Virus record (IMG/VR): IMGVR_UViG_3300013132_006127
From: a virus
Reading direction: 5' to 3' (one strand)
DNA length: 64,000 nt
Position 1 is the first letter of the stretch. Every line of letters starts with the position of its first letter. The notes beneath the pieces are model-generated. The model saw only the letters and a program-made list of their open reading frames with translations, ran no database searches and was not told the origin of the DNA. A program made the translations under genes and the position numbers. Of the stretch, positions 1-31,683 are shown piece after piece.

Positions 1-3000
1 ATTAGTGCTACAAAGGTTAGAGATGCACTATTCAAAGGAGATGATGCTTTACTTCAAGAGTATCTAGACCCAAGCATTGCTTCTATCTTAATGGGTAATA
101 GAACACAGCTTCGTAATCGAAGTATGATGGTTCCTATGCTTTTGGAAAAAATAAAAGAAGTAGTAGAAGTAGAAAAAGCTAATTCTAATGCGGAAGTGCA
201 GAGATTATTGGAGTCAGCTCCCGGAGGTCCATACAAGAATGTTAGCGCTAAACTCAGAGAAAATGCTCCAGAGGTGGCGGAGCAGGTAAGGCAAATCAGG
301 TCTCAAAGAGATATGATGGCTCGCGGAGCTTTTGGATATAGAGCATACAATGTTATTCAAGCTTTATCTTCTCAATATCCTGAAATGTATGCTTTAGATC
401 CCAATAGGACAGCATCCGTATCCGCAGCAGCCCAGGATATAGATAGAGATATAATGATGGGGCAAGTTACGGAAAGTATGAGAGATTCTTTCCCGTCCAT
501 AGGTTCCGCTGAGACACTTTCTCCAATTCAAGAATCAATATTAGCTAGAGTTCAAAAAGAAACAGCTTCTAGAGGATCTGGATTATTACCAGCTTCTAAT
601 CAAGAAGTTCTAAAAGCTCTAGGGAATAGTGTTATTCCTAACGAGGATAGATTTGGTAAATTTGCTGGTAGATCGTTGTATGATCATCTTAAACTAGGAA
701 AGAAAGTAAAAACTAATCTTCCTTATTGGTTTAGCGACTATAAGACATTCATGAGAAGACCCGGCGAAATTACTGGTCTTACAGAAGAAGACGTATCCAC
801 ATATGCGGCTACTAGAGACTATGTTATAGATTTATTTAATAAACAAAAGAGTGGATCACAACAATCATTATTAGAAAGCACAGCTCAACAAATAGCCCAA
901 ACACAAATGTTAGCTATTGTTGGCCTTAGAGGTAAAAATGGTTTACAAGGCCCATTGACTTGGAACTTGGGTAATAACACAGCAGGAGAACCGGTCTCGG
1001 TATCTGCTACAATTATGGAAAGAGTGTTACCAGCTAAGTATAAAGCTGTAGCTGATTATATTAGTGAGCAAACCGGCAGTATAGTTCAGACAGCTGCTGG
1101 AATGATGGGAGAACCAGGATCATTAAAAAGTCTAGATCTTAAAAAGAGAGAAGTGCTTAATCAAGGAAATATAGAGGGTGGTATTTTTGAACAATTATTA
1201 GCTACTCTAGGAGCAGATGTGCTAGACGATGCTGTTAGAACACGAGCTATAGACTTTCCAAGTGGAATAGGAGAAGTAGCTGGTAAAGTTTTTGGTATAG
1301 ATGCCAATATACCAACAGAAGCTAAGAGAACGATTGACTCTACATCTAGAGCTAAGGCTATGGAGGAATTTCAAAGATACTTTAGAGGAGTTTATGGAGT
1401 ACCAGAACCGGAAGGGGATCTGGTACAACAGTTTGCTAAAGGTGGAAAAGTAGATGATTTATTAGTAAAATATAAAGACATTATTAAAAGTATAATGCCG
1501 GCTGAGTATATTGCTGATGATGGATTTTTAGTCGGTACAAATGTTGATATTAATAGAAATAATTCTATGTTTCTAAAAGCCTTAAAATTTATGATTCCTA
1601 ATGCTAATTTTGGATATACCAAAGGTACAAATTACTCAGTTTTGATAAATTCTTTGCGTAAAAATAAAAGTAAATTCACAGAATCAGAATATTCAGAGTT
1701 AGAAAAATTTGCTATAGAAAAGCTTAGTCAAACCAAAAATTCAATTACTCTCGGTCCTGGCGCCGAGAGTCTTTTACCGCATGAAGCTTTCCATACTATT
1801 CAGGGATTTTTAGCTTTAAATCATCCTCAAATCTTTGACAATCTACTACAACAGTCTTTAGCTAATAAAGATAGATACTTAGAAATATATACTAAATCTA
1901 AACTTAGTAAAAGTTTATTAGGAACATATCAGCCTGAAAAAATGTTTACTGATCCAAAAACAGGTAGTTCTTCTTTTAGAGGATTAACTACGATATTACC
2001 AGAAAAATATAAATCATCAGAAACAATAAAATCTTTAGATAAAGAAATATCATCTACATTAGGAGCTAATGAGATAATACCTTCTTTATTAGACATGATT
2101 GTTTTAGAAAAAAATACAGCAGCACAAAAATTACTTTCTGATATATTTTATTCATCAGGATTAAATGCTAATTTCGCTAGTACCATGCCACAAGGTTATT
2201 TCTGGGGAGGTAAAGTTGACCCTCTTGCTAAGAAGTATGGATTATCACAATCAGAATTTGAAGAACAGAAAAAAATAGCTAAATTTATGGGATTAAGCGA
2301 TAAAGATTTTGAGGAAAAGCTTAGACTGTTCGCTTCTCAAAAGAAACGCGTTAAAGGAGCTAAATTTGCCGCTTTAGATGCCGTGGCAGATTCTTCTGTG
2401 GCCAATCAAAGAGTTACAGCAGAACAACAAGCGTTATCTGAATTCTTACAAGCCACTAAATTTGCTGATGGAGGCACCGCTACTTTAGACAAGCCCTCTA
2501 AAAATTATGGTAAGATAAGCATCACTGAAGATGGAAATACTATTAGTGCAGGGTATCTTAAGAGTAATGATGATAGATCTGGATATGTCAATGCATATAA
2601 AATGAGAGATTATCTATATTACGTTGGTTTATCCAAAGCTACTAGTGGTTATGGGCCAAGATTATATGATGTTGTAATGGAAGCAGCTACTGAAAAAGGA
2701 GCTATGTTAACTTCAGATAGAAGTAGCGTTAGTGGCGATGCCAAAAGAGTATGGGAATATTATTTTAAAAATAGAGGAGATGTTAAAAAAACACCATTAA
2801 AACCAGATGATTGGACAAGAAATCAAGCAGATATTGATCCTAAACTATATGGAAGAGAAGAAACATGGCCCCCAGCCAATGATCCAGCATGGATATTACA
2901 AAGCGGTTATAGCAAATCTCCTTCTTTAATCAATGATCCAAGCGCTGTTATAAAAACAAACAGAAAACAAGATAGTAGAGCCATGGCTCTGCAATACTTT

Positions 3001-6000
3001 CAGAGAGCTGCCATGGGTGGTTCGATTAGAAGATTTGCAAATGGAGGCTCACCAGAAGATACTGTTCCAGCATTATTAACCCCGGGTGAGTTTGTTATCA
3101 ATAAGAAAGCTGCTCAAAGTATAGGATACGGTAAGCTTAACAGACTAAATCAAGCAGACAAATTACAAGGATATAATAAAGGTGGTCCTGTAGGAGGAAT
3201 ACAAAGATTTAATGTTGGTGGCAATGTTGCTTCTGAAGCTCAATTAAACGAGATTATAGCAGCTACATGGGAAGTCTTTCAAAAGATGCCAGAAGGTATT
3301 AAAAATATTATAGAGAAGTCCCTAGACTCCGCTTCTATATCTTTAAATACAGGTGATACTTTTGACGATATAAATTTAAAACTTAGACAACAACTAGTAT
3401 TTGCTCAAAAAAATATTGATAATTTAGGACCAGAAGTAGTAGAAGGAATTAGAAAAATTTTAGGAGCCGGAATTCGTAAGTTAGACGTTATAGAGTTAGA
3501 CACTATACGTTCTAGCTCAAGTTATAAAGGTCCGGGTAAAGAATATTATGAAGACGTTGAAAAAGCAAGAGCCGGTAGAAAAGTTTTCGAGTCAGGAGCC
3601 TCTGATGCTAAAGACGTAATGCAAGCTATGGCTAGGAGTGTAGGAGGTGTAGGAAGCGAAATATATCCAAAACCAGTCGTTAAACCAGAAGATTATTATA
3701 GTAGATTAGATTATAGCGATATTGGTCCATCCAGAGGGGTTAATGATAGAGGACAATTATACGCTAAAGCATTAGCTGGCGAAGACCCAATAAAAGTAAA
3801 TGCTCTAATTGAAAAGCTTAGAAAAGAAATGGAGGATGCGGCTAGAGCCGCTGGTATAGCTATCAGTAAATGGGGCAAGAGCGAATCTTGGGCAGCGTGG
3901 GATATTGGTAAACAATTGCATATGGAAAAAAATCCAAGAGAAAGCAGCGATAGATATCGTTTAGCTAATCCTTTAAATGATGCACAGCTTCAAAAAGAGA
4001 TAGTACAAAGACATTTAGCTTGGGAGGCTACTGGTGGCAGAAACGCTACTACGGGAGAAAGATTATCTTCTGCTGATCTTAAAGATTTGGGTGCTCGCAT
4101 TATGGAGCAAATAGAAGCCACTAAAGCCCAAACAGATGCCACCAAAGCCCAAACAGATGCAAATACTCAAACAACATTTCCTTTTATGGCTCCTCCAACA
4201 CCTTCTGGTCCTACAGGTCCGGGTGGTCAGAGAACATTTGCTTTTATGTCGGGTTCTGGTGCTCCTAATCCTTACTCAGCAACTTTACCATCTGGTATTG
4301 ATTATAATCCTGTTAGTAGAAGGATAAGAAGAAATACTAGAGAAAACGACCCCAATATACAAGAAAGATATCAAAGATTCTCTTCGTCTGTATTTAATAG
4401 ATCTATTGAGCAATTATCAACTAGAGCTAATATATTTGGTGGAGCTTTAGCTACAGCTATAGAAACAACATCAAGATTTGCTGGATCTACGACAGTAGCA
4501 GGAAAAACATTAAGTGGATTAGCTTTTTCTGTGGGTTCCGTAACAGGAAGTTTCTACCAAGCTGCTCAAGCTATAAGAGCTATTGGTAATTTTGCAGATT
4601 CTAGATTCGGACAGAGGATTCTTGGTCAATTTGCACAAAGTATAAATACAGTTAGCTTAAACAGATTTTTTAATCAGCAGATTAGAGGTATTTTTGGATC
4701 ATCTACAGTTGGAGGAATAGCAACAGCTTTTGGAGCCGGAACTGCGGCGGCTGTAGCCCTTACACAGACATTTATAGATTATAGTAATGCTCTTAAAGAA
4801 AGTAGAATAGAAGAAGCTCAAAAACAGCAAGAGAGAGCATTAACCAAGTCAGCAGAAGCTTTAGAAAAATATTCCAAGGTTCAAGATAGAGCAACTCTTG
4901 AACTAGCCAATACTTTTGCGACATCAGCTGGCATTGCAGCTATTAATGAAGCTAATGCTAGAAGTGCTGGAGATAGACGCTTTGGTATGGCAACAGGCAC
5001 TTCTTTGGGTGCCGGAGCCATAGCTGGTGGCGCAATAGGTACTTTTATTGCTCCCGGATTAGGAACAGCTATAGGGGCAGCTATAGGTGGAACAGTAGCA
5101 GCGGCTATTGCTCAATCGCTCGGTGCAGATAGAACATCTGGAACAACAGCCGAGGAAAGCTCATTGCTGCTTGGTAGAAGCAGAAGCTCTATATTAGAAG
5201 TTTTTAATCAAAGATTTACAACCGGCGAAACTAGCGAAGATATTATGAGAAGGCCGGAGTGGAATGCTCAAAGACAAGTTTTGGCTAGATCAAATGCTGA
5301 GGTGGAAGCAATTATCAGGGGCATTCAGTCTGATGCAACACTGACTGAGGATGTTAAGAAAGCAAGAATAGAAGAGGCTTTACAGATAGAAGCATCAGCA
5401 CAGTTAAGGCAACAAGAGCAGATATGGCTAAGACAAAAAGGATTAATAGATCTAGATAATGCTACAAAAGCTTATACCAGAAGTTTGAAAAATATGTTTG
5501 CAAATATGGATGAAGCTATCAATAGAAGTTCTGTAGCTCTAGAAAACTTTAACACTTCTGTAGAACTAGCCGAAGCCTCGGTTAAAGGTCAAGCTAGAAT
5601 AGGTGTTTTTAAGAGTGAAACATCTAATATTATCAGAAATCCCAGAGCTTCGACGAATGAAGAGAGAGCACAAGCTGCTAGTGTTGCCGGTTCTTTCTTT
5701 GGTTCAGAAAGTGGTACAATTAGAGAATTAATTAATATTGGACCAAAAATAGAATCTGCTGTGTTAGCATCTATACAAGCAGCACAAACGTTGCCCGGAT
5801 CAACAACGGATGAGGCAATAGCTGCTGCTATCAGAAAAAGCGTTAGAGCAGAACTCACGGAGTCGTCATTACCTCAAGATTTAAGTGATAAGCTTGGTCA
5901 ACAAATAGCCATAGAATTAGAAAAAAGAAGAAAGAGTGGAGATGACAAGGTAGATTTTAGAGATCTAGAAGAAGCTATTCCACAATTAAAAGATTCTATA

Positions 6001-9000
6001 GACGCTCTCAAGGGAGCACAAGATATTGCCATTAAGGCTTTGGAAGACTATGCTCAAAAAGTTGGTATTCTAGTTGATAAGACCAATACTTCAGTAGAAC
6101 TTTTAGTACAAGCCGGCGATTTACTAAGAAAAGCTAGTGAGATTAGATTCAATAGCGCCTCACAATTAAGCAGAACTTTTGGTTCCAGTATTGATGTAAA
6201 TGCTATACAAAGTTTTAGAGACACAACTATTCGTAACCAGACAGGGGGACCAGCATCGCCTGAAGGTATATTAGACAATATTAATAGATTAGAAAATAGA
6301 AGAGCATTTCAACAAAACCAATTACAATCAGCCCAAGACAGAGGAAGGTCAGGAGCTAGAGATGTATTAGGTTTTACTGATCAATTATCTAGAACCACAA
6401 GATCCTTAAGAGATAATCAAAAAGCATTAGAAGATCTAGCGGCCAATAGCGAACAAGCATCCGCAGCATTAGAAAAGATATCAGAGGTTCAAGCAAAAAC
6501 TCAAGCTGGACAAAATATAATAGAAAGATACTTAACGTCAACAAGAGAAGATAATTTTAAACTATCTTCTGCTTTTGAGAGACTAGATAATAATATGAGG
6601 GGTATGGTTAATGATCCTTTCGCTTCAAGAAATGTGTTTGAGGCAATGAGAGATAGCGATAATCCAGTTTTGGCTGCTGATCAAGCTATAGCTCAGGATA
6701 GAAGAGATACTCTCGAAGCATTTAATATGCTGGCTCCTTTCTTAGGAGATACAAGAGAGCAGAATACAATTAAGGCTAATGTTTTAGAGACTATGCTACA
6801 AGAGGCTGGCATAGGAATGACACCTATGTTTAATGAGGTTATTAAGTCTCTTAGAAATCCAGAAAATAATTCGGAGATGTCCCAATTAGTAGAGCAATAT
6901 AAAGAAGGAATAAAGATTCAGTCTAAGGCCAATGAGTTGCTCGCTGAATTGAACACAAATTTTGCTCAAAATCTTAAACAAAGTTCAGAAGAAGCATTTA
7001 AAAACGCCATAACAGATACTCTGGTTAAATTTGAAGAAGCCCAGGTATCTCATCTGCAAAAGATAGAAGAGATACTATCTAAACAGACCCCAGCCGCTGG
7101 TCTTTCTAGTGGTGGTGTGGTTTATAGAAATATCGGTGGCTCGATATTCCAGCCAAAAGGAACAGATACTGTTCCTGCTATGTTGACTCCTGGAGAATTT
7201 GTTGTCAATAAATCAGCAACACAAAAATATGGATCAGTATTAAATGCGATTAATACTAATACTTATGCTAGAGGAGGAAAGGTAAAATATTATGCTACTG
7301 GCGGTTATGTATCTAGTTTATTGAAAAATGAAACTGGTTTTACCTCTGCTAGTTCAGAAGCAGAAACAAAGAATTTTGGTTTATCGAGTGATTTTTATCA
7401 GAATCCACCAGATGCTGCTGGTAAAAGAAACAAAAATTTTAGTAAAAATAGACACTTTGATCCTGGACAGTTAACAGAAACTTTGAGAGACGCAAATACT
7501 GTAAGACTTATGAAATTAACAAATAATCCTAGTATAATACCATTAGGATTAAATGCTGTTGGTCCTGATGCATTCCCGTTAGGTGCTACATCTTCAGAAA
7601 ACTATAAAACATTTGAAAACTTTATTAATGATGGAGTTTCTGCAACTTCTGTTGGTATTGGTTTTTATCCAAGATATAAGATGGCTCTAAATGGTACTGT
7701 TTTAGCAGATAACGCACCAAACAATGTACAGGTTTCTCAGTTAGGACCAGCTATACCAGAAGCCCTATTCAAAAATATAGGAACTATTAAAGAAAGATTC
7801 TTAGAAGAGAGAGAAGCAGCGGAAGCCTTAAGATTAAAACCAGTGATAGATAGCGTTCTTCAGAATTTAGATCTTAACACATATCAAATATATAATCAAC
7901 AAAAATATACAGAAGCCTTGTCTAGTCAATTACCCATATGGTACAAGGAAGGTAAATCCGTTATCGATTTTGGTGGAGGTATAGATAATGCTATATTTAC
8001 TAAGGCTAAAGCTGATCTTAATAAGTTAGAATATACCAAAGGTTTTGGTGAAAAAGCTCTATTCTTGGTTCCTGGCACCAGTGATCCAGTAGTTAATCAA
8101 AAAATATCTGCTTTGAATAGATCTGGTATGCCAGTTGGATTTGATGTAAATAATCTGCAAATAACAACAGGGGATCCAGGATTACCTATTTATGGAGCGG
8201 GCGGCTTTACTGTCGATATAGCTAGTAGATCCTCAAGATCTGGACAAAAAAATCTATCAGTATTGCCACCATCTAAAATATATAGAACATCTAGAGATAG
8301 TATTAGTGAAAATTTAGAATTTTTACAACTAATTAGATCGGACTTCGAAGATTTAGAGAAGGATAGTTTTGGTCCAGAGACTATCTATTCCAATCAATAT
8401 GCTCTTTATCAGAATGCTCTTAGTGATATTTCTAAAGGTTTAATAGAAAAAGCTAAATTTAATAGAGATATTCTTGATCAAGACGAAGTAGCCAATTTAT
8501 CATCTGTAAAAGGAGATAGAATAGATCTCAGTAAGCTAACAGATCTTTATGTGTGGAGTAAGAGGTCTTTTGATGCTTCTAAAATCAAAACTAATCCTAG
8601 GTTTAAAAATGCCACAAATATTGGTTCTGATTTTCCAATTAAAAACATAGATACTAATAATATAGAAAATTTTGTTTGGTCTTTATCTGACAGTATCACC
8701 GGATCTGACTTTCTTAATAGTGTAAAACCATTTTTAGATCCTAAACAATATTTAATAAATGAAACATTTTCTGAAACATTTGATGCTCCATGGGCTATAG
8801 ATAAAAAAATCAATGTAGAGTTCCCATATAAGACCTTGAAAAAACTACCTATTTTTGATTTTAATAATGGTGGTTCTATTAGCAAAGAATACAATGGCTT
8901 TGGTTTATATGCCGATACATTTAATATGTTAGGTGATAATAAAACTATAAATCCATTCAAACTAGCCACTACAGATTATAATAACAATAAATTATTATTA

Positions 9001-12000
9001 ACTAAAACAGATGCATCATCTATATTATCTAATAAAATTAAACAATGGATCAATAGTAACGGTGGTCAAGTTCCGACAAAAGCTGTAGACTTACAATTAT
9101 TGTCCAAATTAGTACAGTTAGAACCTAGTGATTTGGATATTATTCCAGAAGATAACGATCTATCTAGAGAAACGGCGGCCGCTAGAAGAGATATTTTTGG
9201 AGCAAAAGGGAGCTTGTACCAACAATTAGCAGGCATTGGCGTTCTATATAGAGAAGGTGGCGAAGCTAATTTCGGTAATTTAGATCTAGATCCATCTATG
9301 GTTAATGATTTTAAAGATAAGGTGGATTTAAATAAAGCTTTTGCCACCAACGCTACCAATCAAAGGTTTCCTGCTTATGCAAATGGTCTACTAAATATAA
9401 AGAATGAATTAGTGAAGTCTAAAGAATCATTATTAGAAGATTTTATTAATCAATCTAGTATATCTAATTTGAATTTATCTGATTTAGCACCATGGGTTAA
9501 AAACTTACAAGATAGTAGAATAGGGGATTTATTTAGCGGAGGTCCGGAGGTCCCAGACAATCTAAGAAAGGTTTATTTGCAAACTTTGGGCTGGGATAAA
9601 ACACAAAAAACAGCAGACCTAATGAATGCCACCGAAGCTAAATATCCCGGAGCTTTCCAAGAATTGATGAGTCTGTTGCAGTTGGGTTTCTATGTTAATG
9701 GGGGTAAAACAGCAGCAGCATCAAATACACTATCGAGCGAGTTTAATGATCTGCAAAAAAGTTTCTTTGGCACGGAAGATTTAGATAAATTATCAGTTTT
9801 TGAAGATTCGAGAGTGGCTGGCAAGAGAGGCAAACAGTGGTGGAAAGCTGGAGGTCCAGATTGGGCAGGTTTTGCTAGATATAATCTTTCTATTATTTCC
9901 CGTAAAGGTATGATAGAAAATATTCAAAACATTCTTAATAAAGCTAGTCAGGCTTCATTTAATCAGCAAGACGCTAATGATCTAGCAGAAGATATACAGT
10001 CCTTATCCATAGGAGCAACGGGATCTGCTACTATTGGAGCAGAAACACCAGCTAATAATTTAACAGATTTATTAACTAAAGCTCTAGATACCACGAAAAT
10101 TTATACAGAAGGTTACAGACTGGATATAGCTGATGCTATTCAGAAATTTAATATGCCTGGAGGTGTTAAAGATCCTAATCTTGATAGAATCAAGTCTATG
10201 ATAGATCCATCGAGTGATCTATTGACATATTTAGCTTTTAAAGATGCTATTTTGTCACAGCCTATTAGTTCTGTTCAGGGTATCAAAGTACAAGGAGATG
10301 ATAGAGATATTAAAGCTCCTAGATTGTCAAACTATGCATTAAATACAGAAAGTATTAATGGAGTTAATCCTTGGTCAATATATGAAACATTTTTAGATAA
10401 TGCTGCATTTACCAACGTTTCTAATGCTTTTAATGAATTAGTCGATATGATAGGAGCAGCCGGGAAATTTACATTACAAGATCCAAGAACTATATATCAA
10501 GGACCGGTTAATACTTTTGATAGTAAATTATACGAAAACCCTGATCATAGATCGGCTGATCCTATTAAAGGTACCGGAGCTTATACAACATCTTATAAAG
10601 CTTTAGCTGGTACAATATATGCTACATTATTTGAAAAAGCTAAAAAAGAAGAAGCTCTCAGAGATAGCACAACAGAAGATTCAAATGTCATTTATAGATC
10701 AAAGGGTGGCTCCGTAGGATATTACAATAATGGTGGATCAATTATTAATTTTCAACCTAGGGGAACAGATACTATCCCAGCTATGTTGACTCCGGGTGAA
10801 TTTGTCATCAATAGACAGGCTACTCAAAAACATCTACCTTTATTACAAGCTATTAATAGTCAAAATTATCAAACCGGAGGAGTTGTCAAATATCTACAAA
10901 ACGGATCGCAAAACCCTGTATCGTCTGATTCTCCACAAGACTGGATCCGTCAATTTGTCAATGATATTAGATCAGCCTCTGATGAAGATATATTAGGTTA
11001 TGGTAATTCGAAACAAACAATGTCTTTGGATAGATTCAAACAATTTGTATGGGATTTAACAGCTGGCCGTTGGGCTGGTTTTGGAGGAGACATTCCTAGA
11101 GGTAGAGTCGTAAGAAAAGCTCAACCGGTGTCAGCCGATGTTTCTTTTGCTAGACCAAATCAAACATCTGTAAGCTTCAAGAGAGATGTGGCTGAAACAA
11201 CATGGACTCCATCATCTAGATCCATGGCTTCTCAGAGGAATAGACAAGAAAACCCATATATGCCACCAGCAGAAGATCCAACTGCGTATTCTCCATCTTC
11301 TAGAGCACAAGCTAGTAGAAGAGCTAGAGAATCATATAAACCTCAATATTCCGCTGAATCTTATATTAGCGATAGTGATGCTATTAATGCCTCGCAACAA
11401 TTTGAAAAAGAGTACAAAGAAAGAAAAGAGAGGATTCTTAAAAGAGAATTAATGCTAGAAGAAGGTCCAACTAGCAGTATTAATCTATCTACACCAACTA
11501 TGACATTTGAAAAATGGGATAGAAAAAATAGAACAGACGGTAGAATAGTAGCATATGACGCAGCTAGACAATTCTTGGCTATACTAAAGATCGCTGGTAC
11601 AGACATAATGGAACCCGAAAAGAAAACGGCGGGGGTTACTGCTTTCCCGATAAACCTATTGGGTCCATCGTCGCAAGAATCTGTATTTTCTTTACTATCT
11701 AATAGAGAATTATCAGTAGATGATCCTTATCCCTATCAAAAAATAGGTATTAATGAGGCATTAAATAGATTAGAGAAAGAATACGGATCAGATTTTGTTA
11801 AACAATATAGAAGCAGAGACAGGATTTCTAAAATAAGTACTAATGCTGGTTTGGTATACGATCCAAACCAAGGATATATCGCTTCTAAATTATCTGACTT
11901 TTTATTATCAAATGTACTAGAAAAACAAAAGAAGTTTGCTGTACCAACAGCAGAAGCAGTACCGGTGCCGGATGCAGAGGTAGCATATACTTCTACAAAA

Positions 12001-15000
12001 GCTGCTGAACCTGTATTTCCACAAAAACCAGAGAATAGATCCGTAACTAATGTTTCGGATGAAATATCTGTATTAGGTCAAGAGTTTAGAAAATGGATCG
12101 ATGTTTCTGGTAAATATAATACAATTGCAAAATTAATGTCCTTTGTTAATCAAAGTAGAGATGTTAAATTAAACAAAAATAATAATAAAAATATAGTCGT
12201 GCCTATAGATAAGCTAAGTTCAGGAGATAAAAATTATCTTAATAGAGTTAAGTCCTCTAGCAGTAGTATTCCTGCTCCTAAAACCTCGTCCACAAATAAA
12301 CCAGAAAGTCAACAAGTATTTAATAATGTAGATAGATTATGGTATGGAGGAAGATTATGGGATCTTAATAATGATGGAATAGAATCAGAAAAAATAGTTG
12401 GTAGAATTGATCGTATATTGGATGCCGAAAGAATTATGATAGATACCAATAGTGTTCCTGGAGGAAGTCTTATTCTCAGAAGAGAATTTATGAACCAAGA
12501 AGACTTAGACACTATTAAGGCTTGGGAAAATCAAAGAAGAATAACCGCAGTAAACAAACAAACCGGCGGGATGATTTATGCTTCTAATGGTCAATTGATT
12601 AATTTCCAGCCGAGAGGTACAGATACCGTACCAGCGATGCTTACTCCTGGTGAGTTTGTTGTAAATAGACAAGCTACACAAAAGAATTTACCATTATTAC
12701 AATCTATCAATAACTCCACAAGTAATAGTAAATCTTATATGAGAGGAGGAATAATTTATGCTGCTGATGGAGCATATGTAAGAGATAAGGCTGGTGGTCC
12801 AAGATCAATGCTTTTGTCACCAAGAGAAGCAAAAAAATTAAATGTTCCTTATCAAATAGGTAGAGGTTATGATGCTCAGTATTTTGACAGAAACGATAGA
12901 GGTATTGGTCCTATTGAATGGAGAATGATAGAAAAAGCTGATGAAGAATATGTTAAGAGTCAAGGTAGAAGTGGAATAAATTATTTTGATCATCCAGAAC
13001 TCAAAAGACAGAAAGCTTTTGCTACCGTTCCAGGAATGGTCGCATCTGGATTAGGGAAACTAGGAGAGTTAATAAATAATGCTATAGAATGGGAACCTTA
13101 CGGAAATGGATATAAGCCTGTTAAGATTTTCTCAAGCATGTTAGATATGATTAGTAATGTTGCTGTCGGAACAACAAGAGCTGCTGGTGCTTTAGCTGGT
13201 TTAACTGTGGGTTCTGTAGTTTCAATACCCGACATGCTTCTTTCTGGGACGGACTACCTCTTTCCTGGATCAAAAGATGCATTTACTAGAGCTATAGGTT
13301 TTGATACTTCAGAATTTGTTAATGTTATGAATGAGGGGGCGGCATTAGAGTTAGAAAGAGCGGTAATGAATTACGCTTCTTTATATAATAATGTATTAGG
13401 AGCTGTAGACTCTACTTTTGGTTCCAATTTAGAATCTACAGATTCTTGGGCTCAAGCAATTACCGGAAATCAAAAAAAACTATGGGAAGAAAAAATGGCT
13501 TTGGCTATTAGATCAGGTATGAAAGGAGGAACCAGTGGACGTGATCATGAACTTATGTTAGGAGCATTAGATGGTATAAGCGTAGCAGCTAGCACCATAG
13601 GTGGGGCGGCATTGGCGAGCAAGATAGGAAATATAAAGCTCGCTAAAGGTTTAACTACAATGATACCTGAAGAAACAGGAAGTGATGTTTTACGTGTATT
13701 GGCTGAAATCAATAATAGATTGGTTCAGGGACAAGGATATATTATGCAAGCGTCAGAGATCGCAGGAACGGTTGCTTTACCAAAAGATATAAAAGACGCT
13801 ATAGAGGCAAGTAAGCTTCAACCAGATACAGAAGATCCGCAAGAAAGAGCATCAAGAAGAGTTGCTGCTGTAAATTTTGCTAGAGGAGGTTTGGTTTCCG
13901 AGGTTTCTGGTTTATATCAAAGTAGATTAACGACTCAAAAAAATCTTTCACAAGCTAATGATCAGTGGTTTGTTGTACCATTAAAAGCTGGTAGAGGTAG
14001 AGGTTCACAGGCTGGTGATACGAGTAAGATTTTTGATGCTAATGGTAATATTTTACCATCAAATGAACTTTTGACATACGATATGAATAAATTAGCTACA
14101 ATATATGGTAATGATTCTAAGTTAGCCCAAAAAGCAGCATCGACAAAATATCCATGGTTTGATGCCAAACAACACAGACTCGTAATGGGTCAAGGAATAT
14201 ACAGAAACCAGAAAACATCTTTTAGTAAGCAAGATCCAGCATTAAAATTAATTGATGAATTAGCCTATGAATATAAAGCTATGCCAGATATTTTTGAAAT
14301 TAAGAATAAAGAAGCATATACCGATGAAAATATTGATTCGTCTAAATTTTTGAGTAGCTTGAAAGATTCAAAGGGTAATTATGTAAAGCAATCGGTAGAA
14401 CCAGCCGCTCAAATGCTTAAAGATAGAAGTAATTTTTTAACCACTCTATTTTTTAATCTAGAAGAAGCTTTAGATATAGTAGATGCATACATCAATAAAG
14501 AGGGAAGAGATAGTACTTTAAGATCAGCCTTTGCTGGCGAAGACCCAGACAATATTCTAAGTTTCCAAAAGACCGCGGTAGGATCAGAGATAAATAATAT
14601 AGATAATATTCTTAAAGAAGCAGAGATAAACCAGTATGCTCAAAAAGTAAAAAATAAATATAACCAAAGTAGAATATTAAATTTTGGAGAAACAAAGAAC
14701 TTAAAGTCTATCGTAGATTACTTTACTAGAAATAAAAAGCCAGAACCAAAAACACAGCCAACCGGTCCAGTTAATATGGCGGTGGGTGGTTTTGTGCCCA
14801 GTTATTATTCATCAGGGTCATTAGTAAATTTTGCTCCAAAAGGTACCGATACTGTACCAGCAATGTTAACTCCTGGCGAATTTGTAATTAATAAACGAGC
14901 CACACAAAAGAACCTACCTCTTCTAAAACAAATTAATAGTCAGAACTATCAAAGAGGAGGAGTTGTAAAATACTACCAGCAAGGAACCCAAACGCCTGTT

Positions 15001-15432
15001 CAACAAACTGGTGGATTGGGTAGTATGTATTCTTTATCATTAGATGATAAATCAATATCTTTAATTAGAGAATTTACATCAAGATTTAGTGAATTTAGTA
15101 ATAAATTGGCTAACTTAGCTATTCCATCTTTGAAGTTGGATGAAACAACATTAGCCTCATTGAATAACTTTACTCAAAGATTTGATAACTTTACCAAAGA
15201 GTTATTAAAGCTAAATATTCCGCCAGTTATAACTATAACCGGTAAACACGATGTAAATGTAAATATTAATGGCGCTAGTGTATTTAGTAATATGGATAAA
15301 TATGTCTCTAACATGATTAAAAACGAGATAAACAATGCTTTTGCCCAACTAGCAAGGGAAACGGATGGCGCTATCAGTATGAACTACAACCCGTCCGCAT
15401 ACAGCAATCAAAACAGTCAAAATATGGCTTAA
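1..15432 (+). CDS. Giant tape-measure-like polyprotein with embedded enzyme/effector domains (5'-truncated, >5140 aa)
   Basis: Frame is open from base 1 (ISATKVRDALFKGD...), so ATG 91 is probably internal. Ala/Gly-rich helical core with glycine zipper GAIAGGAIGTFIAPGLGTAIGAAIGG (~4981-5124). Five copies of DT[VI]PA[ML]LTPGEFV[IV]N flanked by F/YxxGG, as in the lambda gpH C-terminus. Ends with a TMP-like HDVNVNING strand followed by a helix. Confidence 0.88.
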   Translation: MSATKVRDALFKGDDALLQEYLDPSIASILMGNRTQLRNRSMMVPMLLEKIKEVVEVEKANSNAEVQRLLESAPGGPYKNVSAKLRENAPEVAEQVRQIRSQRDMMARGAFGYRAYNVIQALSSQYPEMYALDPNRTASVSAAAQDIDRDIMMGQVTESMRDSFPSIGSAETLSPIQESILARVQKETASRGSGLLPASNQEVLKALGNSVIPNEDRFGKFAGRSLYDHLKLGKKVKTNLPYWFSDYKTFMRRPGEITGLTEEDVSTYAATRDYVIDLFNKQKSGSQQSLLESTAQQIAQTQMLAIVGLRGKNGLQGPLTWNLGNNTAGEPVSVSATIMERVLPAKYKAVADYISEQTGSIVQTAAGMMGEPGSLKSLDLKKREVLNQGNIEGGIFEQLLATLGADVLDDAVRTRAIDFPSGIGEVAGKVFGIDANIPTEAKRTIDSTSRAKAMEEFQRYFRGVYGVPEPEGDLVQQFAKGGKVDDLLVKYKDIIKSIMPAEYIADDGFLVGTNVDINRNNSMFLKALKFMIPNANFGYTKGTNYSVLINSLRKNKSKFTESEYSELEKFAIEKLSQTKNSITLGPGAESLLPHEAFHTIQGFLALNHPQIFDNLLQQSLANKDRYLEIYTKSKLSKSLLGTYQPEKMFTDPKTGSSSFRGLTTILPEKYKSSETIKSLDKEISSTLGANEIIPSLLDMIVLEKNTAAQKLLSDIFYSSGLNANFASTMPQGYFWGGKVDPLAKKYGLSQSEFEEQKKIAKFMGLSDKDFEEKLRLFASQKKRVKGAKFAALDAVADSSVANQRVTAEQQALSEFLQATKFADGGTATLDKPSKNYGKISITEDGNTISAGYLKSNDDRSGYVNAYKMRDYLYYVGLSKATSGYGPRLYDVVMEAATEKGAMLTSDRSSVSGDAKRVWEYYFKNRGDVKKTPLKPDDWTRNQADIDPKLYGREETWPPANDPAWILQSGYSKSPSLINDPSAVIKTNRKQDSRAMALQYFQRAAMGGSIRRFANGGSPEDTVPALLTPGEFVINKKAAQSIGYGKLNRLNQADKLQGYNKGGPVGGIQRFNVGGNVASEAQLNEIIAATWEVFQKMPEGIKNIIEKSLDSASISLNTGDTFDDINLKLRQQLVFAQKNIDNLGPEVVEGIRKILGAGIRKLDVIELDTIRSSSSYKGPGKEYYEDVEKARAGRKVFESGASDAKDVMQAMARSVGGVGSEIYPKPVVKPEDYYSRLDYSDIGPSRGVNDRGQLYAKALAGEDPIKVNALIEKLRKEMEDAARAAGIAISKWGKSESWAAWDIGKQLHMEKNPRESSDRYRLANPLNDAQLQKEIVQRHLAWEATGGRNATTGERLSSADLKDLGARIMEQIEATKAQTDATKAQTDANTQTTFPFMAPPTPSGPTGPGGQRTFAFMSGSGAPNPYSATLPSGIDYNPVSRRIRRNTRENDPNIQERYQRFSSSVFNRSIEQLSTRANIFGGALATAIETTSRFAGSTTVAGKTLSGLAFSVGSVTGSFYQAAQAIRAIGNFADSRFGQRILGQFAQSINTVSLNRFFNQQIRGIFGSSTVGGIATAFGAGTAAAVALTQTFIDYSNALKESRIEEAQKQQERALTKSAEALEKYSKVQDRATLELANTFATSAGIAAINEANARSAGDRRFGMATGTSLGAGAIAGGAIGTFIAPGLGTAIGAAIGGTVAAAIAQSLGADRTSGTTAEESSLLLGRSRSSILEVFNQRFTTGETSEDIMRRPEWNAQRQVLARSNAEVEAIIRGIQSDATLTEDVKKARIEEALQIEASAQLRQQEQIWLRQKGLIDLDNATKAYTRSLKNMFANMDEAINRSSVALENFNTSVELAEASVKGQARIGVFKSETSNIIRNPRASTNEERAQAASVAGSFFGSESGTIRELINIGPKIESAVLASIQAAQTLPGSTTDEAIAAAIRKSVRAELTESSLPQDLSDKLGQQIAIELEKRRKSGDDKVDFRDLEEAIPQLKDSIDALKGAQDIAIKALEDYAQKVGILVDKTNTSVELLVQAGDLLRKASEIRFNSASQLSRTFGSSIDVNAIQSFRDTTIRNQTGGPASPEGILDNINRLENRRAFQQNQLQSAQDRGRSGARDVLGFTDQLSRTTRSLRDNQKALEDLAANSEQASAALEKISEVQAKTQAGQNIIERYLTSTREDNFKLSSAFERLDNNMRGMVNDPFASRNVFEAMRDSDNPVLAADQAIAQDRRDTLEAFNMLAPFLGDTREQNTIKANVLETMLQEAGIGMTPMFNEVIKSLRNPENNSEMSQLVEQYKEGIKIQSKANELLAELNTNFAQNLKQSSEEAFKNAITDTLVKFEEAQVSHLQKIEEILSKQTPAAGLSSGGVVYRNIGGSIFQPKGTDTVPAMLTPGEFVVNKSATQKYGSVLNAINTNTYARGGKVKYYATGGYVSSLLKNETGFTSASSEAETKNFGLSSDFYQNPPDAAGKRNKNFSKNRHFDPGQLTETLRDANTVRLMKLTNNPSIIPLGLNAVGPDAFPLGATSSENYKTFENFINDGVSATSVGIGFYPRYKMALNGTVLADNAPNNVQVSQLGPAIPEALFKNIGTIKERFLEEREAAEALRLKPVIDSVLQNLDLNTYQIYNQQKYTEALSSQLPIWYKEGKSVIDFGGGIDNAIFTKAKADLNKLEYTKGFGEKALFLVPGTSDPVVNQKISALNRSGMPVGFDVNNLQITTGDPGLPIYGAGGFTVDIASRSSRSGQKNLSVLPPSKIYRTSRDSISENLEFLQLIRSDFEDLEKDSFGPETIYSNQYALYQNALSDISKGLIEKAKFNRDILDQDEVANLSSVKGDRIDLSKLTDLYVWSKRSFDASKIKTNPRFKNATNIGSDFPIKNIDTNNIENFVWSLSDSITGSDFLNSVKPFLDPKQYLINETFSETFDAPWAIDKKINVEFPYKTLKKLPIFDFNNGGSISKEYNGFGLYADTFNMLGDNKTINPFKLATTDYNNNKLLLTKTDASSILSNKIKQWINSNGGQVPTKAVDLQLLSKLVQLEPSDLDIIPEDNDLSRETAAARRDIFGAKGSLYQQLAGIGVLYREGGEANFGNLDLDPSMVNDFKDKVDLNKAFATNATNQRFPAYANGLLNIKNELVKSKESLLEDFINQSSISNLNLSDLAPWVKNLQDSRIGDLFSGGPEVPDNLRKVYLQTLGWDKTQKTADLMNATEAKYPGAFQELMSLLQLGFYVNGGKTAAASNTLSSEFNDLQKSFFGTEDLDKLSVFEDSRVAGKRGKQWWKAGGPDWAGFARYNLSIISRKGMIENIQNILNKASQASFNQQDANDLAEDIQSLSIGATGSATIGAETPANNLTDLLTKALDTTKIYTEGYRLDIADAIQKFNMPGGVKDPNLDRIKSMIDPSSDLLTYLAFKDAILSQPISSVQGIKVQGDDRDIKAPRLSNYALNTESINGVNPWSIYETFLDNAAFTNVSNAFNELVDMIGAAGKFTLQDPRTIYQGPVNTFDSKLYENPDHRSADPIKGTGAYTTSYKALAGTIYATLFEKAKKEEALRDSTTEDSNVIYRSKGGSVGYYNNGGSIINFQPRGTDTIPAMLTPGEFVINRQATQKHLPLLQAINSQNYQTGGVVKYLQNGSQNPVSSDSPQDWIRQFVNDIRSASDEDILGYGNSKQTMSLDRFKQFVWDLTAGRWAGFGGDIPRGRVVRKAQPVSADVSFARPNQTSVSFKRDVAETTWTPSSRSMASQRNRQENPYMPPAEDPTAYSPSSRAQASRRARESYKPQYSAESYISDSDAINASQQFEKEYKERKERILKRELMLEEGPTSSINLSTPTMTFEKWDRKNRTDGRIVAYDAARQFLAILKIAGTDIMEPEKKTAGVTAFPINLLGPSSQESVFSLLSNRELSVDDPYPYQKIGINEALNRLEKEYGSDFVKQYRSRDRISKISTNAGLVYDPNQGYIASKLSDFLLSNVLEKQKKFAVPTAEAVPVPDAEVAYTSTKAAEPVFPQKPENRSVTNVSDEISVLGQEFRKWIDVSGKYNTIAKLMSFVNQSRDVKLNKNNNKNIVVPIDKLSSGDKNYLNRVKSSSSSIPAPKTSSTNKPESQQVFNNVDRLWYGGRLWDLNNDGIESEKIVGRIDRILDAERIMIDTNSVPGGSLILRREFMNQEDLDTIKAWENQRRITAVNKQTGGMIYASNGQLINFQPRGTDTVPAMLTPGEFVVNRQATQKNLPLLQSINNSTSNSKSYMRGGIIYAADGAYVRDKAGGPRSMLLSPREAKKLNVPYQIGRGYDAQYFDRNDRGIGPIEWRMIEKADEEYVKSQGRSGINYFDHPELKRQKAFATVPGMVASGLGKLGELINNAIEWEPYGNGYKPVKIFSSMLDMISNVAVGTTRAAGALAGLTVGSVVSIPDMLLSGTDYLFPGSKDAFTRAIGFDTSEFVNVMNEGAALELERAVMNYASLYNNVLGAVDSTFGSNLESTDSWAQAITGNQKKLWEEKMALAIRSGMKGGTSGRDHELMLGALDGISVAASTIGGAALASKIGNIKLAKGLTTMIPEETGSDVLRVLAEINNRLVQGQGYIMQASEIAGTVALPKDIKDAIEASKLQPDTEDPQERASRRVAAVNFARGGLVSEVSGLYQSRLTTQKNLSQANDQWFVVPLKAGRGRGSQAGDTSKIFDANGNILPSNELLTYDMNKLATIYGNDSKLAQKAASTKYPWFDAKQHRLVMGQGIYRNQKTSFSKQDPALKLIDELAYEYKAMPDIFEIKNKEAYTDENIDSSKFLSSLKDSKGNYVKQSVEPAAQMLKDRSNFLTTLFFNLEEALDIVDAYINKEGRDSTLRSAFAGEDPDNILSFQKTAVGSEINNIDNILKEAEINQYAQKVKNKYNQSRILNFGETKNLKSIVDYFTRNKKPEPKTQPTGPVNMAVGGFVPSYYSSGSLVNFAPKGTDTVPAMLTPGEFVINKRATQKNLPLLKQINSQNYQRGGVVKYYQQGTQTPVQQTGGLGSMYSLSLDDKSISLIREFTSRFSEFSNKLANLAIPSLKLDETTLASLNNFTQRFDNFTKELLKLNIPPVITITGKHDVNVNINGASVFSNMDKYVSNMIKNEINNAFAQLARETDGAISMNYNPSAYSNQNSQNMA
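3007..3222 (+). repeat. TMP GG/GEFV cassette, copy 1
   Basis: AAMGG..FANGGSPEDTVPALLTPGEFVINKKAA..YNKGG..FNVGG. Confidence 0.9.
4117..4158 (+). repeat. 21-bp tandem duplication (ATKAQTD x2)
   Basis: gccactaaagcccaaacagat / gccaccaaagcccaaacagat, one mismatch. Confidence 0.85.
7102..7305 (+). repeat. TMP GG/GEFV cassette, copy 2
   Basis: LSSGG..RNIGG..PKGTDTVPAMLTPGEFVVNKSAT..YARGG..YATGG. Confidence 0.9.
10693..10908 (+). repeat. TMP GG/GEFV cassette, copy 3
   Basis: YRSKGG..YNNGG..PRGTDTIPAMLTPGEFVINRQAT..YQTGG..LQNGS. Confidence 0.9.
12556..12774 (+). repeat. TMP GG/GEFV cassette, copy 4
   Basis: KQTGG..ASNGQ..PRGTDTVPAMLTPGEFVVNRQAT..YMRGG..AADGA. Confidence 0.9.
14776..14988 (+). repeat. 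TMP GG/GEFV cassette, copy 5 (canonical C-terminal position)
   Basis: MAVGG..YSSGS..PKGTDTVPAMLTPGEFVINKRAT..YQRGG..YQQGT, about 150 aa before the stop. Confidence 0.9.
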
Positions 15433-15445
15433 AGGGTAATTTATT

Positions 15446-30681: not shown

Positions 30682-31683
30682 ATGACATATATTATTAATA
30701 AAGATTGCATCATACTACCAGCAAAACCAGAAAGATCACCTACTCCTAGTTTCACTAGTAAGCCCACTAGCACACCAACTCTTACTCCATCAAATACAGC
30801 AACACCGCCAGTAACACCAACGGCTACTAATACTAGAACTCCTAGTCAAACATCAACAGTAAGCGCAACTCCAACAAAAACCGCCACACAAACACCCTCC
30901 AACACCCCTACTGTTACAAGAACTCCTACAGTAACTCCAACAAATTTTTGTTACTACCAGGATAGTTTGCCTGAGACTTGTTGTGGGGAATTTTTCTTAT
31001 ATGCTAGAAGCGGATTATGGTATAATACTAATGTTTATTTTAATCAAAATGATAGGTTGTATATCACAGCAAAAGGTTGTGCTTCCTACAATACCTCTTT
31101 AGCTCCTTCAACTAATTTTGGACCAGAAGGAACAGATACCGGGCTATTAACAGTCGAAGGAAGAATCAATGATAGCGGCACTTATAGTTCAATTTTAAAA
31201 ATTGGAAAATTATATGATAGTTACGCTCCTATAAAAGGATTATTAGAATTAAGAATATATGATATTAATTATAATGATAATGGTGGAGGTTTTTGTGTTT
31301 GTGTAAAAAAAGACCCAGGAGGAGATTGTTTAGCTAATAATTGTGTTCCTCCGGAAGCGTCTCCAACGCCAACGCCCACACAGACCCGAACACCATCTAA
31401 AACTCCGGGAACAACCCGAACTCCGACCCCAACACAAACACCGTCCAGCACCCCCTGCTTACATCCTATGGTAATATGCATAGGGTTATTTGATGACTTT
31501 ATGATAAATAATGGCATTATAGTAGAATTACAAGTAGAAAAAAATCCATTATGCTGTTGCCAAATACAATATTCGTTAGATAATACTAATATATGGACTC
31601 AAATGCCACAACAATATATAGATTGCGATCCTTCTTTTTACTACACTGTTAATACTGTTTGCTTCGGAGATATTATACCATGA
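30682..31683 (+). CDS. TP-stalk protein with LecA/PA-IL-like lectin domain
   Basis: WYNTNVYFNQNDRLYITAKG...VEGRIN...LKIG...GLLELRIYDINYNDNGGGFCVCV (~30991-31305) follows the PA-IL-like jelly-roll pattern W.xT.....D.L.I.A.G...GRI...G.L.L...D..Y.DN.G.F.V. Confidence 0.65.
   Translation: MTYIINKDCIILPAKPERSPTPSFTSKPTSTPTLTPSNTATPPVTPTATNTRTPSQTSTVSATPTKTATQTPSNTPTVTRTPTVTPTNFCYYQDSLPETCCGEFFLYARSGLWYNTNVYFNQNDRLYITAKGCASYNTSLAPSTNFGPEGTDTGLLTVEGRINDSGTYSSILKIGKLYDSYAPIKGLLELRIYDINYNDNGGGFCVCVKKDPGGDCLANNCVPPEASPTPTPTQTRTPSKTPGTTRTPTPTQTPSSTPCLHPMVICIGLFDDFMINNGIIVELQVEKNPLCCCQIQYSLDNTNIWTQMPQQYIDCDPSFYYTVNTVCFGDIIP

What the first reader, a model, noticed from the sequence alone, without database searches (positions are those of the whole stretch)
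3007..14988. Five-fold repetition of the normally single TMP C-terminal cassette
The DT[VI]PA[ML]LTPGEFV[IV]N core recurs at ~3058, 7165, 10768, 12622 and 14848, each wrapped by two G-motifs on either side. The protein sequence is conserved while third codon positions differ, which points to selection on the peptide rather than a recent DNA duplication. At the lambda rule of ~0.15 nm/residue, >5140 aa would mean a tail >750 nm, but the recognisable helical TMP core (~4330-7080) is only ~900 aa. Much of the protein therefore probably does not measure the tail. The cassettes may also serve as recombination points for cargo exchange.
Basis: partly seen in the sequence, partly recalled or inferred. 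Interest (0 to 1): 0.75.

Follow-up and report, generated by a model that had tools for sequence, protein, structure and literature searches.

The report
Repeated junction cassette in giant tape measure
The tail "ruler" protein of this uncultured large phage is 6,543 residues long and carries six copies of a short conserved peptide that phage lambda has once, next to the place where its own ruler is cut; such repeats turn out to be the rule in long rulers of this lineage, and the peptide's job is still unknown.

Summary
Observation confirmed. The DT[VI]PA[ML]LTPGEFV core occurs at exactly the five stated positions (0 expected by chance). Synonymous sites are saturated while the peptide is conserved. 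The window holds only the last 5,143 aa of a 6,543-aa TP901-family tape measure protein (TMP), and a sixth cassette lies upstream.

The cassette (~80 aa) is homologous to lambda gpH 729-793. That is the unresolved start of gpHC, just downstream of the Gly-rich region where gpH is cleaved. It also occurs twice in mycobacteriophage Douge's TMP.

"Normally single" holds only for short TMPs. All 118 giant relatives carry 2-9 copies, 758 protein clusters score too high for a single copy, and copy number rises with length.

Homology between relatives ends at a cassette's end 12 times more often than chance, so the exchange-joint idea has support. The idea that most of the protein does not measure the tail has none: Douge (two cassettes) gives 0.159 nm/aa over the whole ORF. 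That ratio predicts a tail of about 1 µm here.

Cleavage at each cassette is my preferred mechanism, but it is only inferred.

This scan has already found the same architecture in at least 10 other genomes, with the same reading.

The parts
1..15432 (+). C-terminal 5,143 codons (plus stop) of a 6,543-aa tape measure protein; the first 1,400 aa lie upstream of the window
   Evidence: One open frame. It is 100% identical to P0002, 6,543 aa, on an 84.7-kb contig. PF10145 scores 79.9 bits and TIGR01760 92 bits at P0002 151-458, both above their curated cut-offs. Tail-tip genes follow it.
2992..3243 (+). Cassette 1 in the window (second in the protein); core at 3058-3105; the most divergent of the five
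   Evidence: Profile A3 HMM: 74 bits at P0002 2398-2481; regex and DNA pattern
7084..7320 (+). Cassette 2; ends the family-conserved helical scaffold
   Evidence: HMM 101 bits at P0002 3762-3840; conservation map
10675..10926 (+). Cassette 3
   Evidence: HMM 105.6 bits at P0002 4959-5042
12541..12792 (+). Cassette 4; homology with relative P0004 stops at its end
   Evidence: HMM 100.7 bits at P0002 5581-5664; the P0004 HSP ends at residue 5657
14749..15006 (+). Cassette 5, the terminal copy and positional equivalent of lambda gpH 729-793
   Evidence: HMM 105.3 bits at P0002 6317-6402; lambda match. The last cassette ends a median 145 aa before the C-terminus in 245 relatives.
15007..15429 (+). 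Terminal ~141-aa helical module, found once only; presumed tip-docking end
   Evidence: The family HMM gives 178 terminal hits and 0 internal hits. AF2 predicts three main helices at pLDDT 72-85. No significant similarity to the lambda gpH C-terminus.
5098..7083 (+). Family-conserved, helix-rich scaffold (P0002 ~3100-3761), shared by 88-212 of 244 relatives
   Evidence: Coverage map; composition close to lambda gpH in several 100-aa windows (crude)
7498..10500 (+). Lineage-specific insert between cassettes 2 and 3 (P0002 ~3900-4900), shared with only 2-4 relatives; function unknown
   Evidence: Coverage map; no Pfam or PHROG hit; no usable Atlas lead
12793..13875 (+). Hypervariable slot between cassette 4 and an orphan G-motif; replaced in all three closest relatives
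   Evidence: HSPs with P0003, P0004 and P0005 resume at P0002 6026, 6012 and 6023. The orphan motif FARGG is at P0002 6026, nt 13876.
13876..13890 (+). Orphan G-motif (FARGG) where homology with the close relatives resumes
1432..2475 (+). Three further orphan G-motifs without a core, starting at 1432 (FAKGG), 2197 (YFWGG) and 2461 (FADGG)
   Evidence: Regex listing

Best explanation
The ORF is a genuine, single-gene giant tape measure protein (6,543 aa) of an uncultured large phage that probably has a non-contractile tail.

The repeated element is an ~80-aa junction cassette. It consists of Gly-Gly motifs, an extended GTDTVPAMLTPGEFV stretch, a short helix (ATQKxLPLLxxIN), and more Gly-Gly motifs. 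It is homologous to the conserved core of lambda gpHC (gpH 729-793). It is not an autonomous folded domain.

In this TMP lineage the cassette is reiterated in proportion to protein length. It closes each conserved module, and variable inserts begin right after it. Only the last copy is followed by the terminal helical module that presumably docks in the tail tip.

Shown: homology, copy numbers, purifying selection, coincidence with breakpoints, and identical constraints on internal and terminal copies.

Inferred:
(a) The whole ORF sets tail length, giving a tail of about 1 µm.
(b) Each cassette does what the single lambda copy does, namely mark a post-assembly maturation or hand-off site beside which the TMP is cleaved. 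The ruler would then enter the host as a train of separate segments.

I put identity and architecture at 0.9 or higher, (a) at about 0.6 and (b) at about 0.35. Reading (b) is the most likely single mechanism but does not have a majority of the probability.
For: - TMP identity: PF10145 and TIGR01760 score above their cut-offs. The gene sits directly upstream of FN3/RCC1 J-like tail-tip genes. Colinear relatives come from independent samples.
- Lambda link: profile A3 hits lambda gpH 729-793 (E 5e-6) and Douge gp16 twice (E 1e-14).
- Lambda biology: gpH is cut in the Gly-rich region just upstream, giving gpH* (~1-710) and gpHC (~690-853). The site, the protease and the function of gpHC are unknown, and residues 690-817 are unresolved (PMC12617516).
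- Fold: AF2 gives only the core and its helix at pLDDT 67-86; the flanks are disordered.
- Abundance: 2-9 copies in all 118 giant relatives. 13,370 clusters hit at E<=1e-3 and 758 at E<=1e-30. One 7,794-aa protein has 10 copies.
- Scaling: copies are about 2.3 + 0.53 per 1,000 aa.
- Breakpoints: 44% of long-HSP C-ends fall within 15 aa of a cassette end, against 3.6% for random positions.
- Internal and terminal copies share one consensus.
- Selection: dN/dS is 0.04-0.24 with saturated dS.
- Tail length: Douge 0.159 nm/aa, P23-45 0.16, Nodularia 2AV2 0.23.
- P23-45 gp96 has no cassette and is full-size in virions.
Against: - Cleavage has never been shown to depend on the cassette, even in lambda.
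- No protease was found. No JAB/gpK-like or other peptidase family appeared in the nine ORFs downstream.
- The Douge authors model the TMP as a continuous trimer and report no processing.
- A nearly invariant 17-residue core is more than a protease site usually needs. It fits a binding interface better.
- The cassette is inherited with the segment upstream of it (44% of C-ends against 12% of N-ends). Lambda-type cleavage upstream of the cassette would instead place it on the downstream fragment.
- No relative has the gene split at a cassette. The two candidates I checked were contig-edge truncations.
- Composition suggests that only some windows are canonical helical ruler. A length-per-residue extrapolation may therefore overestimate the tail.
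Confidence: 0.45

Rival explanations
1. The cassettes are uncleaved, transiently used docking sites. Each copy would bind a conserved assembly partner, such as the tail assembly chaperone, the tube or distal-tail ring, or other TMP chains. This would keep a very long TMP soluble and in register while the tube polymerises. Longer rulers would need more such sites.
For: The 17-residue core is nearly invariant and the cassette is not an autonomous fold, as expected for a fold-on-binding motif. Copy number scales with length, and spacing has a mode at 1,000-1,200 aa. Internal and terminal copies are under the same constraints. Douge's TMP is modelled as continuous.
Against: The cassette region is unresolved in high-resolution maps of lambda and Douge, so it is not a stable symmetric contact in the mature virion. 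Spacing is very irregular, from 187 to about 2,000 aa for the 5th-95th percentiles. This reading does not explain why variable inserts start exactly after cassettes.
Confidence: 0.3
2. The cassettes act after ejection. They would help the expelled TMP insert into or cross the host envelope, for example as hinge or membrane/periplasm-interacting elements of the trans-envelope conduit.
For: Lambda gpH* forms the periplasmic channel, and gpHC is thought to be released at the tip when the tail opens. In lambda a hydrophobic Gly-rich segment (691-725) directly precedes the cassette.
Against: The cassettes here have no adjacent hydrophobic segment. Six to ten copies spread along about 1 µm of protein are hard to reconcile with an envelope about 30 nm thick. 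There is no direct evidence.
Confidence: 0.12
3. The repeats are functionless scars of module accretion, or an assembly artefact.
For: Modules are clearly exchanged between relatives.
Against: There is strong purifying selection with saturated synonymous sites. The same layout appears in hundreds of independent clusters and samples. The frame is uninterrupted for 15.4 kb.
Confidence: 0.02

Closest known systems
Phage lambda tape measure gpH and its maturation to gpH* plus gpHC
   Same: The cassette aligns to gpH 729-793 (FATGG...HRGEFVFTKEATSRIG...YATGGYVG), E 5e-6 with a 107-sequence profile. In both proteins the last copy lies shortly before a helical C-terminal end.
   Different: Lambda has one copy in 853 aa; this protein has six in 6,543 aa. 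The N-terminal ruler belongs to the TP901 family (PF10145), not the lambda family. The terminal modules show no detectable similarity. Cleavage is known only for lambda, and its dependence on the cassette is unknown.
Mycobacteriophage Douge TMP gp16 (PDB 8ZDO/8ZDQ)
   Same: It carries two internal cassettes, at 964-1038 and 1412-1473, so multi-copy occurs in a cultured, structurally solved phage. Only the extreme C-terminus (1658-1699) is ordered.
   Different: It has 1,699 aa and two copies. The last copy lies about 225 aa from the end. The paper, as far as I read it, does not mention the repeat.
Thermus phage P23-45 gp96
   Same: A giant TMP (5,002 aa) with non-ruler cargo, a virion RNA polymerase, and an 800-nm tail.
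   Different: It has no cassette at all and is present full-size in virions. It belongs to a different TMP lineage.
Nodularia phage vB_NpeS-2AV2 TMP
   Same: A cultured aquatic siphovirus with a 3,404-aa TMP that has internal cassettes at about 1006 and 1079, plus a weak one at 553, and a 795-nm tail.
   Different: No cassette was detected near its C-terminus. There is no similarity outside the cassette.
Polyvalent proteins of phages and conjugative elements
   Same: One giant virion-associated protein built from exchangeable modules.
   Different: Those are defined by recognisable enzymatic domains and a processing peptidase. Here only an SHD1 domain is recognisable, and no peptidase was found.

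Membership tests
TP901-family tail tape measure protein (PF10145 / TIGR01760) | Match to the family core model above the curated cut-off | tested here: met
   PF10145 scores 79.9 bits (cut-off 33.2) at P0002 191-384. TIGR01760 scores 92.1 bits (cut-off 28.8) at 151-458. This region lies upstream of the window.
TP901-family tail tape measure protein (PF10145 / TIGR01760) | Gene position directly upstream of distal-tail and tail-tip genes | tested here: met
   It is followed by a 2,240-aa ORF and a 1,663-aa FN3 + RCC1 protein that matches the PHROG 'central tail fiber J'. A relative has the same order.
TP901-family tail tape measure protein (PF10145 / TIGR01760) | Protein length determines tail length | not testable with these tools
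   No virion images exist for this lineage. Analogues give 0.159-0.23 nm/aa over the whole ORF.
Lambda gpH C-terminal (gpHC-core) cassette | Sequence homology to gpH 729-793 | tested here: met
   Profile A3 against PDB sequences: E 5e-6, 29.4 bits for the whole sequence (27.9 for the aligned stretch). The narrow 5-sequence profile A2 did not reach it.
Lambda gpH C-terminal (gpHC-core) cassette | Single copy placed just before the tip-docking C-terminal helix | tested here: not met
   There are six copies. Only the last is followed by the terminal module, which gives 0 internal hits.
Lambda gpH C-terminal (gpHC-core) cassette | Proteolytic cleavage beside the cassette after tail assembly | not testable with these tools
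   Known for lambda only. It needs virion proteomics.
Cargo-carrying or polyvalent TMP (P23-45 gp96 type) | Recognisable enzymatic or other non-ruler domains embedded in the TMP | tested here: inconclusive
   Pfam finds only SHD1, at aa 4028-4086 of the window's ORF (E 2e-8). PHROGs and the Atlas gave nothing for the inserts. Composition is non-helical over much of the length (crude).
Myovirus (contractile tail) | Tail sheath gene | tested here: not met
   PF04984 is absent from five relatives' genomes of 159-244 kb (CheckV completeness 100%), while the control genomes were positive. The window's own genome could not be searched.

The most novel reading that the evidence does not exclude
Each cassette is a self-sufficient maturation module. 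After the tube is built, the 6,543-aa ruler would be cut beside every copy, and the tail lumen would then hold a train of about six or seven separate proteins. These would be injected ahead of the DNA, with the slots between cassettes freely exchangeable among phages. The same module would explain the unexplained gpH to gpH* + gpHC cleavage of lambda.
Probability: 0.3. Interest if true: 0.8.

Novelty: new variant of a known kind. Interest (0 to 1): 0.55.

Why it matters
The cassette is widespread (13,370 protein clusters at 50% identity) and strongly conserved. Yet no Pfam or NCBIfam model covers it, and among PHROGs it only falls inside whole-TMP families. I found no paper that mentions it.

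It sits in the part of lambda gpH whose cleavage site, protease and function are all stated to be unknown. Natural proteins with 2-10 copies, including cultured phages with two or three, give a direct way to test what it does.

If the whole ORF measures the tail, this lineage would have tails of about 1.0-1.2 µm. That exceeds the 20-875 nm range quoted for siphophages. The inter-cassette slots would also be a natural scaffold for exchangeable virion-delivered proteins.

Tried and rejected
- The narrow five-copy profile A2 found nothing in PDB sequences. A 107-sequence profile was needed.
- An exact 47-nt search for the window in IMG/VR found nothing. No whole genome is held for the window.
- P0002 is too long for the contig look-up, so the window's own upstream genes were not seen.
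- PHROG scans of genes upstream of a relative's TMP did not identify tube or chaperone genes.
- I looked for a lambda gpK-like JAB/NlpC peptidase downstream and found none.
- I looked for genes split at cassettes. The two candidates, P0197 and P0185, start at contig edges.
- An eye-level resemblance of the last 45 aa to lambda gpH 805-849 was not supported by an HMM.
- An Asn-autocleavage idea (the invariant N after GEFVV) was dropped because lambda and Douge have Thr at that position.
- I could not confirm the claim in earlier notes that T5 pb2 has the cassette. There was no T5 hit at E<=1.
- A full all-against-all BLAST timed out. I used a subset of 49 queries instead.
- The Atlas search of the 1,121-aa insert gave no usable hit.
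- The AF2 models were too low in confidence for a fold search, so I ran none.
Full report
**What is in the sequence.** Window 1..15432 (+) is one open frame that runs off the 5' end. Its 5,143 residues (P0001) contain the core D-T-[VI]-P-A-[ML]-L-T-P-G-E-F-V five times, starting at nt 3058, 7165, 10768, 12622 and 14848. A degenerate DNA pattern finds exactly these five sites, against none in 100 shuffles.

Aligning the copies defines a cassette of about 80 aa. It has one or two aromatic-x-x-G-G-x-V motifs, then xFQPxGTDTVPAMLTPGEFV(I/V)N(K/R)xATQKxLPLLxxIN, then Y-x-x-G-G-x-V and a second, often degenerate, G-motif.

Between copies 2-5, pN is 0.07-0.18 while pS is 0.51-0.79, which is saturated. 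No two copies share more than 14 identical bases in a row. The observation, and the inference of selection on the peptide, are therefore correct.

**The whole protein.** The window's protein is the C-terminal part of P0002, which has 6,543 aa and is 100% identical. Its N-terminus matches PF10145 and TIGR01760 (TP901-family TMP core) above the curated cut-offs. A sixth full cassette lies at aa 573-663 (83.6 bits with the broad profile).

Downstream come a 2,240-aa ORF and a 1,663-aa FN3 + RCC1 protein matching 'central tail fiber J'. This is the canonical TMP position.

Five relatives' genomes of 159-244 kb, rated 100% complete by CheckV, contain no tail sheath family, while the control genomes do. 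The lineage is therefore probably made of large siphovirus-type phages. The window's own genome is not held. Notes from other windows place it at more than 139 kb (unchecked).

**How common the repeat is.** All 118 relatives of 2,900-7,700 aa carry 2-9 cassettes.

A profile search of 1.84 billion representatives found 13,370 proteins at E<=1e-3 and 758 at E<=1e-30. Scores of that size generally need more than one copy. One protein of 7,794 aa has 10 stretches.

Over 245 fetched proteins, copy number is about 2.3 + 0.53 per 1,000 aa. The first copy starts at a median of aa 514 and the last ends a median 145 aa before the C-terminus. Spacing is broad, with a mode at 1,000-1,200 aa.

In an IMG/VR sample, complete TMP ORFs of 1,256-1,476 aa have one copy. 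Those of 2,000-2,900 aa have one to four, mostly two or three, and longer ones have three to seven.

Among cultured phages:
- Pan1 (876 aa) and JustBecause (1,740 aa) have one copy near the C-terminus.
- Nodularia phage vB_NpeS-2AV2 (3,404 aa) has internal copies at about 1006 and 1079, plus a weak one at 553.

So 'normally single' holds only for short TMPs. In long TMPs of this kind, reiteration is routine.

**What the cassette is.** The five-copy profile hit nothing in PDB sequences. A 107-sequence profile (A3) hit two TMPs:
- lambda gpH 729-793 (E 5e-6);
- mycobacteriophage Douge gp16, twice, at 964-1038 and 1412-1473 (E 1e-14).

In lambda this stretch is the unresolved N-terminal part of gpHC. 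gpHC is the ~14-kDa fragment released when gpH is cut in the Gly-rich region just upstream. The exact site, the protease and the function of gpHC are stated to be unknown, and only residues 818-849 are ordered, docked on gpI (PMC12617516; PMC10721106). In Douge only 1658-1699 is ordered (PMC13033339).

AF2 with deep alignments predicts only the core and its short helix at pLDDT 67-86. The glycine flanks come out disordered. The cassette is thus a linear, partner-dependent motif and not a domain.

The ~141 aa after the last copy form three main predicted helices. They occur only at true C-termini, with 178 terminal and 0 internal hits. Internal and terminal cassettes have the same consensus and about the same mutual identity, 0.57-0.59. 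The first copy is a slightly divergent subtype. Internal copies are therefore constrained to do whatever the terminal, lambda-equivalent copy does.

**Modules and exchange.** A coverage map of P0002 against 244 relatives shows four conserved elements: residues 1-700, the helix-rich 3100-3840, the cassettes themselves and 6300-6543. The rest is variable, and 3900-4900 is shared with only 2-4 relatives. Within P0002, only the cassettes are paralogous.

Across 49 queries, 44% of the C-terminal ends of long HSPs fall within 15 aa of a cassette end, against 3.6% for random positions. For N-terminal ends at a cassette start the figures are 12% and 3.3%. Conserved modules thus end with a cassette, and variable sequence begins right after it.

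Against the three closest relatives, the slot after cassette 4 is replaced. Homology resumes at P0002 6012-6026, which is exactly an orphan G-motif (FARGG, nt 13876). Other breakpoints, such as 2767 in P0003, are not at any G-motif.

The 'exchange joint' idea is therefore supported statistically but is not exclusive. Copies within one gene are too diverged for ordinary homologous recombination. Exchange would have to occur between corresponding copies of related phages, or be illegitimate and then filtered by selection. This last step is inference.

**Does the whole ORF measure the tail?** No image exists for this lineage. The analogues point one way:
- Douge has two cassettes, 1,699 aa and 64 tube rings spanning 269.6 nm, or 0.159 nm/aa.
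- P23-45 has 5,002 aa including a folded RNA polymerase and an 800-nm tail, or 0.16 nm/aa.
- Nodularia 2AV2 has 3,404 aa and a 795-nm tail, or 0.23 nm/aa.

By the same ratio this phage would have a tail of about 1.0 µm, and relatives with 7,800-aa TMPs about 1.2 µm. That is beyond the 20-875 nm range quoted for siphophages.

However, the same measure cannot separate the folded cargo of P23-45 from its ruler, so I give it little weight.

**Mechanism.** The cassette is unresolved in two high-resolution virion maps, which argues against a stable symmetric anchor in the mature tail. That leaves a transient assembly role, a maturation role or a post-ejection role.

I favour a lambda-type maturation or hand-off site at every copy, at about 0.35. 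The reasons are:
- the one characterised homologue lies beside the one known cleavage;
- cassettes and orphan G-motifs delimit exchangeable segments, as cleavage sites do in polyproteins;
- internal copies are constrained like the terminal one;
- the cassette-free P23-45 TMP is full-size in virions.

Several points count against it:
- No protease was found.
- A 17-residue invariant core looks more like a binding interface.
- The cassette is inherited with the upstream module.
- No relative has the gene split at a cassette.

A non-cleaved docking role (about 0.3) and a post-ejection role (about 0.12) remain open.

**Earlier findings of this scan.** After I had reached the lambda link, look-ups showed the same architecture in at least 10 other genomes. 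It had been followed up with the same closest-known system and the same open question about cleavage. My tests reproduce those readings independently. I could not confirm two details from those notes, namely a T5 homologue and a TIGR01541 match.

Noticed in passing
window 12082-12258 (P0001 aa 4028-4086): An SHD1 (SLA1 homology domain 1, PF03983) match, E 2e-8 and above the cut-off, lies inside the TMP between cassettes 3 and 4. Several giant relatives carry the same family.
   Followed up: partly
window 22906-27897: A 1,663-aa protein with four FN3 domains and seven RCC1 repeats matches the PHROGs 'central tail fiber J' and 'minor tail protein'. It is probably the central fibre or hub. A second RCC1-bearing giant lies at 35430-40514.
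   Followed up: partly
window 13876-13890; also upstream of the window at P0002 1028-1041: Orphan (K/R)-F-x-x-G-G motifs without the DTVPA core coincide exactly with the points where homology to the closest relatives resumes. They seem to be half-cassettes used as joints.
   Followed up: partly
L012, L014, L019, L026, L008 (relatives' genomes): Genomes of 159-244 kb (CheckV completeness 100%; two with direct terminal repeats) carry such TMPs and have no detectable sheath gene. These would be jumbo-sized siphovirus-type phages.
   Followed up: partly
L002 (Nodularia phage vB_NpeS-2AV2, TMP at 6034-16248): The annotated 3,404-aa TMP predicts about 510-545 nm at 0.15-0.16 nm/aa, but the published tail is 795 nm. 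The cassettes lie in the first third of the protein and none is near the C-terminus. The ruler gene model or the ruler rule may not hold here.
   Followed up: no
window ~4680-5400 (P0001 aa ~1560-1800): Gly/Ala-rich hydrophobic stretches (e.g. GAGAIAGGAIGTFIAPGLGTAIGAAIGG) resemble the membrane-like segments of other TMPs and lambda gpH 697-725. They lie about 600 aa upstream of cassette 2, not next to it.
   Followed up: no
window 31659-33224: A 521-aa tail-module protein has an FGE-sulfatase / C-type-lectin-like domain (PF03781, E 1.5e-20).
   Followed up: no
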